Shown here in pieces: positions 21,241-21,446 of a DNA stretch of 64,000 nt (its first letter is position 1; the number at the start of each line of letters is the position of its first letter). Under the pieces are notes generated by a model. It worked only from the letters and a program-made list of their open reading frames with translations. It was not told the DNA's origin and ran no database searches. Source of the DNA: Escherichia coli. GTDB taxonomy: Bacteria; Pseudomonadota; Gammaproteobacteria; Enterobacterales; Enterobacteriaceae. The translations under genes and the position numbers were made by a program. The stretch lies in the NCBI RefSeq assembly GCF_045037415.1, contig NZ_CP173438.1. One strand, written 5' to 3'.

Positions 21241-21446
21241 AAAAAAAAGCACCGCAATTAGGCGGTGCTACATTAATCACTATGGACAGACAGGGTAAAT
21301 GTACAGGAAGTGAAAAAAGGTAGCTTTGCTACCATGGTCTGAATCGCAGACCAATTGCAAACACAACAACACAACATCACAACCGTAAGCCAAAAGTTCA
21401 CCAGAACACGCATTCCGATAAAACTTTTCGTTCCGGCTCAGGAAGT
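21241..21446 (-). ncRNA. gcvB: GcvB small regulatory RNA (~206 nt)
   Basis: Minus-strand sequence begins ACTTCCTGAGCCGGAACGAAAAG, contains the GU-rich stretch TTGTGATGTTGTGTTGTTGTGTTTGC and ends in a GCACCGCCTAATTGCGGTGC hairpin plus T-run; divergent from gcvA as expected. Confidence 0.9.

What the first reader, a model, noticed from the sequence alone, without database searches (positions are those of the whole stretch)
21241..21446. GcvB sRNA divergent from gcvA
Seen: the minus-strand sequence matches the GcvB sRNA as I recall it, including the GU-rich target-binding stretch and terminator hairpin. It is conserved and not novel, but absent from ORF-based annotation.
Basis: partly seen in the sequence, partly recalled or inferred. 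Interest (0 to 1): 0.15.

Follow-up and report, generated by a model that had tools for sequence, protein, structure and literature searches.

The report
GcvB small RNA beside gcvA

Summary
Confirmed, and already known. Rfam's GcvB model (RF00022) matches window 21446..21241 on the minus strand, end to end, at 199 bits (gathering score 42, E = 1e-46). The 206 nt are 206/206 identical to gcvB (b4443) of E. coli K-12 MG1655, although the surrounding 5.9 kb differs from K-12 at 139 positions. 5,425 of 5,426 complete E. coli genomes carry the sequence.

All the expected parts are present:
- a divergent gcvA gene 128 bp upstream;
- a conserved sigma-70 promoter (TTGAGC-17-TATAGT);
- a conserved upstream block where the GcvA site is published to lie;
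- the SL1 hairpin and the G/U-rich R1 seed;
- the SL2 and SL3/t1 hairpins;
- the near-invariant R2 and R3 seeds;
- a GC-rich terminator followed by eight U.

In 27 non-redundant homologues from about 20 enterobacterial genera, every hairpin persists while its sequence changes. gcvA stays divergent upstream. The internal 46-codon ORF is not conserved.

The mechanism comes from the literature, not from tests here: an Hfq-dependent antisense repressor of amino-acid and peptide transport and biosynthesis mRNAs, made when glycine is abundant. The only practical point is that automatic RefSeq annotation leaves this gene unlabelled.

The parts
21241..21446 (-). GcvB sRNA, 206 nt (+1 = 21446, 3' end = 21241)
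   Evidence: Rfam RF00022, 199 bits, full model. 206/206 identical to K-12 gcvB b4443. Published mutation sites G156, G160 and C162, and t1 ending near +135, fall on the right bases when counted from 21446.
21386..21440 (-). SL1, long 5' hairpin (RNA nt 7-61)
   Evidence: Present in the MFE and centroid folds and in the Rfam consensus structure. The base of the stem is invariant and the apex varies freely: 27 distinct sequences all still form a hairpin, mean z -2.2.
21355..21384 (-). R1, G/U-rich single-stranded seed (RNA nt 63-92), including the 8-nt UUGUGUUG expansion typical of the E. coli/Salmonella/Klebsiella group
   Evidence: Read directly from the sequence. About nt 71-93 are unpaired in the centroid fold, while the 5' end of R1 is drawn into a weak long-range helix. 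Literature: most targets are bound through R1 (PMC9299463). R1 pairs with the dppA 5' UTR (-44 to -11) at -27.1 kcal/mol, better than all 43 background 5' regions.
21335..21353 (-). SL2 hairpin (RNA nt 94-112)
   Evidence: Kept in 27/27 homologues, mean z -4.2. Compensatory changes are visible, e.g. GUCUGG/CCAGAC to GUCCGG/CCGGAC (Morganella, Enterobacillus) and GUCUAG/CUAGAC (Moellerella).
21313..21333 (-). SL3 hairpin plus U6: internal terminator t1 (RNA nt 114-134)
   Evidence: The terminator scan finds GGTAGCAAAGCTACC followed by TTTTTT. Named t1 in PMC3658540. Kept in 27/27 homologues. The outer pair switches G-C to A-U in 7 sequences.
21300..21312 (-). R2 / Con-II conserved seed CACUUCCUGUACA (RNA nt 135-147)
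   Evidence: Nearly invariant across 27 homologues that were retrieved with an R1-only pattern, so this conservation is an independent observation. Literature: R2 is used for cycA.
21273..21299 (-). R3 seed region (RNA nt 148-174)
   Evidence: nt 149-171 are invariant or nearly so in 27 homologues. Defined as nt 148-174 in PMC3536696. Point mutants at 156, 160 and 162 with compensatory target mutations are reported in PMC9299463.
21241..21269 (-). Rho-independent terminator t2: 8-bp GC-rich hairpin plus U8 tail (RNA nt 178-206). This is the usual shape of an Hfq-binding 3' module.
   Evidence: Terminator scan and fold. Kept in 27/27 homologues, mean z -5.7. Hfq binding itself was not tested here.
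21453..21481 (-). gcvB sigma-70 promoter: -35 TTGAGC, 17-nt spacer, -10 TATAGT; +1 lies 7 nt downstream
   Evidence: Promoter scan. TATAGT is invariant and TTGA of the -35 is invariant in 17 genera.
21482..21518 (.). Conserved block at -36 to -72 of gcvB (ATTAGTTTTTTTAATCTGAGCCATTATAAATTGTCCG on the gcvB strand). It is the probable GcvA operator and overlaps a perfect TATAAT on the + strand (21491-21496) that would serve gcvA.
   Evidence: This is the only conserved part of the intergenic region besides the promoter. PMC3658540 Fig. 1 places the GcvA-binding site in this shared gcvA/gcvB control region. The exact footprint could not be read because PMC177269 is not held, so the assignment is an inference.
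21575..22492 (+). gcvA, the LysR-type regulator that controls gcvB, divergently transcribed
   Evidence: NCBIfam NF008352 GcvA, 512 bits against a cutoff of 288. Annotated gcvA in K-12 and other records. Divergent upstream of GcvB in every enterobacterial locus with enough flank; the gap is mostly 120-130 bp (range 99-296 bp, plus two partial matches).

Best explanation
This is the gene for GcvB, a 206-nt trans-acting, Hfq-dependent small RNA of E. coli.

How it works, according to the literature. It is transcribed leftward (minus strand) from a sigma-70 promoter that shares a control region with the divergent gcvA gene. GcvA activates it when glycine is plentiful. GcvA together with GcvR represses it when glycine is scarce. 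The RNA ends at a strong intrinsic terminator (t2), with some termination at an internal one (t1). Its hairpins hold three conserved single-stranded seeds, R1 (G/U-rich), R2 and R3. These seeds base-pair imperfectly with C/A-rich sites in or near the translation-initiation regions of more than 50 mRNAs. The targets encode amino-acid and peptide transporters and biosynthetic enzymes, for example dppA, oppA, cycA, sstT, gdhA and the ilv genes. Pairing blocks ribosome binding and lowers mRNA levels, which limits uptake and synthesis when nutrients are rich.

Shown here: identity, boundaries, anatomy, conservation, structural covariation, synteny, lack of coding potential, and in-silico R1-dppA pairing.

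Taken from the literature and not tested here: regulation by GcvA/GcvR and glycine, Hfq dependence, and target repression.
For: - Identity. Rfam RF00022 full-length hit, 199 bits against a gathering score of 42, E = 1.1e-46. 206/206 identity to curated K-12 gcvB b4443 in the same gene neighbourhood, rlmM-ygdD-gcvA / gcvB / ygdI-csdA-csdE-tcdA.
- Conservation within E. coli. There are 0 differences from K-12 in gcvB against 139 in the surrounding 5,884 bp (4.9 expected, Poisson P about 0.008). 5,425 of 5,426 complete genomes carry it, and 5,389 are at least 99% identical.
- Promoter and terminators lie where expected, and the promoter is conserved across 17 genera.
- Fold. z = -3.6 against shuffles.
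- Homologues. 14 of 14 tested enterobacterial homologues are Rfam GcvB at 132-192 bits, and the three suspected chance pattern hits are not.
- Structure and seeds. In 27 non-redundant homologues (64-93% identical), SL2, SL3 and the terminator fold significantly in 27/27. SL1 forms in all 27 despite 27 distinct sequences. R2 and R3 are near-invariant.
- Synteny. gcvA is divergent upstream in all informative loci.
- Non-coding. The 46-codon ORF loses its ATG or its frame in most genera.
- Target pairing. R1 pairs with the C/A-rich dppA leader at -27.1 kcal/mol, beating 43/43 background 5' regions and 978/1000 shuffles.
- Mechanism in the literature: PMC3658540, PMC9299463, PMC3536696.
Against: Nothing found here contradicts it. 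There are three limits.
- No expression, Hfq-binding or target data exist for this particular strain; function is inferred from sequence identity to K-12.
- The crude R1-oppA duplex test is only marginal (-23.1 kcal/mol; 42/1000 shuffles and 4/43 background regions do as well).
- The sequence-only MAFFT alignment yields few formal compensatory pairs (2 of 36), because the variable hairpins are misregistered. The structural support therefore rests on per-sequence folding and on Rfam's own model.
Confidence: 0.98

Rival explanations
1. The region encodes a small protein: the 46-codon ORF at 21413..21273 (minus strand, MRVLVNFWLTVVMLCCCVCNW...). It would then be either a protein-coding gene or a dual-function sRNA.
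For: The ORF exists and starts with ATG. Similar ORFs of 44-48 codons occur in 6 of the 8 closest homologues in the 27-sequence set.
Against: - The ATG lies in the variable apex of SL1 and is absent in most genera (Yersinia, Serratia, Proteus, Photorhabdus, Morganella, Erwinia and others).
- The 8-nt R1 indel shifts the frame.
- Where the ORF persists, that follows from near-identity of the RNA sequence and not from codon-wise conservation.
- No Shine-Dalgarno-like sequence precedes the ATG (UUUUAUCGGAAUG), and the start codon sits inside the SL1 stem.
- The strongest conservation falls on the known RNA seeds and ignores the reading frame.
Confidence: 0.015
2. The conserved sequence is only cis-acting DNA or RNA: the gcvA control region plus a bidirectional terminator for the convergent ygdI gene, and not an independent trans-acting transcript.
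For: The ygdI stop codon (21224) is only 16 nt from the GcvB 3' end. The terminator hairpin at 21248-21269 is palindromic and could also stop ygdI transcription.
Against: - A terminator and an operator would explain about 60 nt, not 206 nt of near-invariant sequence with four conserved hairpins and three conserved unpaired seeds.
- A conserved promoter points into the region, with +1 at 21446.
- On the + strand the hairpin is not followed by a T-run (ACATTAATC).
- The transcript and its trans effects are documented experimentally in E. coli for this identical sequence.
Confidence: 0.005

Closest known systems
GcvB of Escherichia coli K-12 (gcvB, b4443; Rfam RF00022)
   Same: Everything that could be tested is the same: 206/206 nt, the strand relative to gcvA, the promoter, R1/R2/R3, SL1-SL3, terminators t1 and t2, and the neighbouring genes.
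   Different: Nothing differs within the RNA. Only the flanking genes differ from K-12 (97.6% identity over 5.9 kb). The window matches other E. coli lineages, such as strains SK1144 and SA186, at 100%.
GcvB of Salmonella and other Enterobacterales (Yersinia, Serratia, Proteus, Photorhabdus and others)
   Same: The architecture, the R1 core, R2 and R3, the terminator, the divergent gcvA gene and the promoter are shared.
   Different: The apical part of SL1 is free to vary. The Yersinia, Serratia, Proteus and Photorhabdus group lacks the 8-nt R1 expansion seen in the E. coli, Salmonella and Klebsiella group. Xenorhabdus indica has about 30 extra nt in SL1.
Other Hfq-dependent multi-target sRNAs of E. 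coli (e.g. MicA, RybB, SgrS)
   Same: They share the general design: a single-stranded seed plus a Rho-independent terminator with a U-tail, acting by antisense pairing at translation-initiation regions (general knowledge; PMC3536696).
   Different: GcvB is longer, carries three separate seeds, and has one of the largest regulons known, more than 50 genes centred on amino-acid metabolism (PMC9299463).

Membership tests
GcvB RNA (Rfam RF00022) | Scores at or above the family's gathering threshold against the covariance model, over the full length | tested here: met
   199.0 bits against 42, model positions 1-204 of 204, E = 1.1e-46.
GcvB RNA (Rfam RF00022) | Located next to gcvA and transcribed divergently from it, with a shared control region | tested here: met
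   gcvA at 21575-22492 (+), 128 bp from GcvB +1. The same arrangement holds in K-12 and in every enterobacterial locus with enough flank.
GcvB RNA (Rfam RF00022) | G/U-rich R1 seed in an unpaired linker after SL1 | tested here: met
   nt 63-92 is GGUUGUGAUGUUGUGUUGUUGUGUUUGCAA. About nt 71-93 are unpaired in the centroid structure. This is an in-silico result only.
GcvB RNA (Rfam RF00022) | Conserved R2 (Con-II) and R3 sequences downstream of t1 | tested here: met
   nt 135-171 are invariant or nearly so in 27 homologues retrieved through R1 only. The published positions G156, G160 and C162 match.
GcvB RNA (Rfam RF00022) | Conserved hairpins SL1, SL2, SL3/t1 and terminator t2, supported across species | tested here: met
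   All four form in 27/27 homologues, with mean z of -2.2, -4.2, -4.9 and -5.7. Compensatory changes occur in SL1, SL2 and SL3.
GcvB RNA (Rfam RF00022) | Non-coding | tested here: met
   The 46-codon ORF is not conserved in start codon or frame outside the closest relatives.
GcvB RNA (Rfam RF00022) | Transcription activated by GcvA with glycine and repressed by GcvA/GcvR | not testable with these tools
   Only supporting sequence evidence is available: a conserved promoter and a conserved block at -36 to -72. The regulation itself is taken from PMC3658540 and PMC3536696.
Hfq-dependent trans-acting sRNAs | Rho-independent terminator with a long U-tail as the Hfq-binding module; Hfq needed for function | tested here: inconclusive
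   The hairpin plus U8 is present and conserved. Hfq binding and dependence are known only from the literature.
Hfq-dependent trans-acting sRNAs | Seed pairs with target mRNAs near the ribosome-binding site and represses them | tested here: inconclusive
   In silico, R1-dppA gives -27.1 kcal/mol at -44 to -11, better than 43/43 background regions and matched by 22/1000 shuffles. R1-oppA is marginal. Repression is shown only in published experiments.

The most novel reading that the evidence does not exclude
In E. coli and its closest relatives, GcvB might be a dual-function RNA that also yields the hydrophobic, cysteine-rich 46-aa peptide encoded from nt 34 (MRVLVNFWLTVVMLCCCVCNW...). That ORF is intact in the window and in 6 of the 8 closest homologues examined. 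The evidence makes this unlikely: there is no Shine-Dalgarno sequence, the start codon is buried in SL1, and the ORF is lost in most genera. It cannot be formally excluded without translation data.
Probability: 0.015. Interest if true: 0.45.

Novelty: already known. Interest (0 to 1): 0.04.

Why it matters
For discovery it does not matter: GcvB has been studied since 2000 and this copy is identical to the reference. It is also a reminder that automated RefSeq/PGAP annotation of E. coli leaves this major regulator of amino-acid metabolism unlabelled, so ORF-based pipelines will show an 'empty' 350-bp gap here.

Tried and rejected
- **Full-length duplex test.** RNAduplex of full-length GcvB against the dppA and oppA leaders gave unrealistic end-to-end duplexes with no discrimination. 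I discarded it and repeated the test with the R1 seed only.
- **Covariation on the MAFFT alignment.** RNAalifold recovered only the conserved stems and two compensatory pairs, because the variable SL1 apex and SL2 are misregistered by sequence-only alignment. I replaced it with anchored per-hairpin folding and shuffled controls. I did not build my own covariance model, since Rfam's already answers the question.
- **First intergenic alignment.** It used plus-strand references for loci whose match is on the minus strand and was meaningless for five rows. It was redone correctly.
- **GcvA footprint.** The paper PMC177269 is not held, so the operator assignment remains an inference. A bare CTAAT motif search is uninformative: 52 matches against about 98 expected.
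- **Chance pattern hits.** L045 (Oscillospiraceae), L066 (Bacteroidota) and L117 were suspected to be chance matches. This was confirmed by the absence of gcvA, 35% identity for L117, and no Rfam GcvB hit in any of the three.
- **Strongest background R1 duplexes in the window.** The best (-26.1 kcal/mol, upstream of the ORF at 33026..32382) are not C/A-rich sites and were not pursued.

Full report
**Observation**

The window sequence at 20900-21800 was read directly, and the whole 64-kb window was scanned against Rfam 15 at gathering thresholds. The scan returns RF00022 (GcvB RNA) on the minus strand at 21446..21241. It covers model positions 1-204 of 204 and scores 199.0 bits against a gathering score of 42, with E = 1.1e-46. 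The only departure from the family consensus is an 8-nt expansion (UUGUGUUG) inside the G/U-rich linker. The later alignment shows that this expansion is typical of the E. coli, Salmonella and Klebsiella group.

**Identity**

The curated reference record NC_000913.3 annotates 'ncRNA gcvB, b4443, small regulatory RNA GcvB' at 2942696-2942901, between gcvA and ygdI. The window's 206 nt are identical to it at every position.

The neighbouring ORFs match the K-12 gene order (NCBIfam; K-12 annotation):
- gcvA at 21575-22492 (+), NF008352, 512 bits;
- ygdI at 20994-21224 (+);
- csdA, ygdD and rlmM.

The strain is not K-12. Over the 5,884 bp that align without gaps, there are 139 differences (97.6% identity). 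None of them falls in gcvB, where 4.9 would be expected (Poisson P about 0.008). The same 5.9 kb is 100% identical to several other E. coli chromosomes, for example strains SK1144 and SA186. Across 5,426 complete E. coli genomes, 5,425 carry the sequence and 5,389 are at least 99% identical.

**Anatomy** (RNA numbering from 21446 = +1)

- **Promoter.** A sigma-70-like promoter, TTGAGC-17 nt-TATAGT, lies at 21481..21453, with +1 seven bases downstream.
- **Terminators.** Two intrinsic-terminator-like elements are found on the minus strand. One is GGTAGCAAAGCTACC plus T6 (nt 114-134), which is the published t1. The other is AGCACCGCCTAATTGCGGTGCT plus T8 (nt 178-206), which is t2.
- **Fold.** The MFE and centroid folds show SL1 (nt 7-61), an unpaired G/U-rich linker, SL2 (94-112), SL3 (114-128) and the terminator. 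The energy is -62.1 kcal/mol against -47.1 ± 4.1 for shuffles (z = -3.6; 0 of 200 shuffles fold as well).
- **Numbering check.** Published coordinates fit this numbering exactly. The mutated residues G156, G160 and C162 of R3 (PMC9299463) are G, G and C here. The t1-up primer that 'hybridizes beginning at +135' (PMC3658540) abuts the U-run that ends at nt 134. R3 at nt 148-174 (PMC3536696) is the conserved stretch UUACCCUGUCUGUCCAUAGUGAUUAAU.

**Comparative evidence independent of Rfam**

One plain-DNA scan of species-representative genomes used only the R1 seed as its pattern and returned 120 loci.

- **Chance hits.** Three loci are chance hits: L045 (Oscillospiraceae), L066 (Bacteroidota) and L117. 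They have no gcvA nearby, L117 is only 35% identical, and none has an Rfam GcvB hit.
- **Synteny.** In every enterobacterial locus with enough upstream sequence, a GcvA homologue (82-99% identical) lies divergently upstream. The gap is mostly 120-130 bp, with a range of 99-296 bp plus two partial matches.
- **Rfam control.** Fourteen diverse loci tested against Rfam all score as GcvB, at 132-192 bits.
- **Sequence conservation.** After clustering at 93% identity, 27 non-redundant sequences remained from about 20 genera, 64-93% identical to the window, and were aligned. R2 and R3 (nt 135-171) are invariant or nearly so. This is an independent result, because only R1 was used for retrieval. The base of SL1 and the terminator stem are also invariant.
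- **Structure.** RNAalifold on the sequence-only alignment recovers the conserved stems, but only 2 of 36 pairs show compensatory changes. One of them is the SL3 outer pair, which switches G-C to A-U in 7 sequences. The variable hairpins are misregistered in that alignment. Folding each hairpin between invariant anchors gives a clearer picture. SL1 has 27 distinct sequences, all form a hairpin, and the mean z is -2.2. SL2 has 27 distinct sequences, 27/27 have z below -2, and the mean z is -4.2. SL2 shows clear double changes such as GUCUGG/CCAGAC to GUCCGG/CCGGAC and GUCUAG/CUAGAC. SL3 gives 27/27 and mean z -4.9. The terminator gives 27/27 and mean z -5.7.
- **Pattern.** Stems keep their pairing while their sequence drifts, and unpaired seeds keep their sequence. 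This is the signature of a structured base-pairing RNA.

**Control region**

Aligning the gcvA-gcvB intergenic DNA of 17 genera shows an invariant -10 (TATAGT), an invariant TTGA in the -35 and conserved spacing. It also shows one further conserved block from -36 to -72 (window 21482-21518: ATTAGTTTTTTTAATCTGAGCCATTATAAATTGTCCG on the gcvB strand). On the plus strand this block contains a perfect TATAAT (21491-21496) positioned to serve gcvA.

PMC3658540 (Fig. 1 legend) places the GcvA-binding site in this shared control region. The original footprinting paper is not held. Calling the block the GcvA operator is therefore an inference, not a result.

**Coding rival**

A 46-codon ORF (21413..21273, minus strand) lies inside the RNA. 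Its ATG sits in the variable apex of SL1 and is absent from most genera. The 8-nt R1 indel shifts the frame. Comparable ORFs survive only in 6 of the 8 closest homologues, where the nucleotide sequence is almost unchanged anyway. No Shine-Dalgarno sequence precedes the ATG. The region is non-coding.

**Mechanism**

The following comes from the literature for this identical sequence.
[quoted passage not shown] - It represses more than 50 mRNAs for amino-acid and peptide transport and biosynthesis. It acts mostly through R1 or R3, and compensatory mutations verify the pairing (PMC9299463).
- cycA is controlled redundantly through regions on both sides of t1, and a form truncated at t1 still needs Hfq.

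As a modest in-silico check, the R1 seed was paired against the K-12 dppA and oppA leaders (loci).
- **dppA.** R1 pairs with the C/A-rich site AACAACAAACAUCACAAUUG at -44 to -11, at -27.1 kcal/mol. This is better than all 43 5' regions of long ORFs in the window, and only 22 of 1,000 dinucleotide shuffles do as well.
- **oppA.** The signal is marginal: -23.1 kcal/mol, 42/1000 shuffles, 4/43 background regions.

A first attempt with full-length GcvB was uninformative and was rejected. Regulation, Hfq binding and target repression cannot be tested with these tools. They are inferred from sequence identity to K-12.

**Comparison, novelty and verdict**

This is a member of the GcvB family, and in fact the reference sequence itself. 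Every defining feature that can be tested on sequence was met, and none failed. It is already known.

All 50 RefSeq rows listed show no feature under the match, and the inspected O157:H7 record has an unannotated gcvA-ygdI gap. Only the curated K-12 record labels the gene.

Interest is very low. The value lies in confirming that the scan's recall-based call was accurate. The most novel reading still open, translation of the internal ORF in the E. coli clade, has a probability of about 1-2%.

Noticed in passing
window 39677-40036 (+): A full-length CsrB sRNA (Rfam RF00018, 382.9 bits against a gathering score of 71), another well-known regulatory RNA that ORF-based annotation would miss. CsrB also lies within a few kb of gcvB in the Serratia, Yersinia and Edwardsiella loci.
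   Followed up: partly
window 16621-16917 (-): Three tandem tRNA-Met (anticodon CAT) genes spaced 110 nt apart, each scoring 61.4 bits. From memory, this resembles the metZ-metW-metV initiator-tRNA cluster of E. coli.
   Followed up: partly
L122 (NZ_AP018488.1) 1373-1722, and the rows: RefSeq/PGAP annotation of E. coli genomes carries no feature for gcvB. All 50 records listed show 'none' under the match, and the O157:H7 record has an empty gcvA-ygdI gap. Only the curated K-12 record has the ncRNA.
   Followed up: yes
L123 (E. coli OkiPb01677, NZ_AP042483.1) 4001-5441: A natural disruption of gcvB. The match stops at RNA nt 125, and an IS4-like ISVsa5 transposase gene follows. The promoter-proximal part therefore keeps SL1, R1 and most of SL3 but is cut off from R2, R3 and terminator t2. 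It resembles the engineered t1-truncated allele described in PMC3658540.
   Followed up: partly
L107 (Xenorhabdus indica) 5575-5805: The Rfam GcvB hit spans 231 nt, against 196-210 nt in the other homologues. The extra roughly 30 nt lie in the SL1 region, so my fixed-offset extraction missed the true 5' end.
   Followed up: partly
window 21224-21269: The ygdI stop codon is only 16 nt from the GcvB 3' end, and the two genes converge on the same GC-rich hairpin. On the ygdI strand the hairpin is preceded by A8 but not followed by a T-run, so whether it also terminates ygdI is unclear.
   Followed up: no
E. coli genome collection: One of 5,426 complete E. coli genomes has no match to gcvB or to the surrounding 5.9 kb. 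One match lies on a record classed as a plasmid. Two records are only 80-90% identical. None of these was identified.
   Followed up: no
window 18300-20841: tcdA, csdE and csdA differ from K-12 by 2.9-4.1%, while ygdI, gcvB and the csdA-ygdI spacer differ by 0-0.7%. Divergence along this locus is markedly uneven, which may reflect recombination or different constraint.
   Followed up: no
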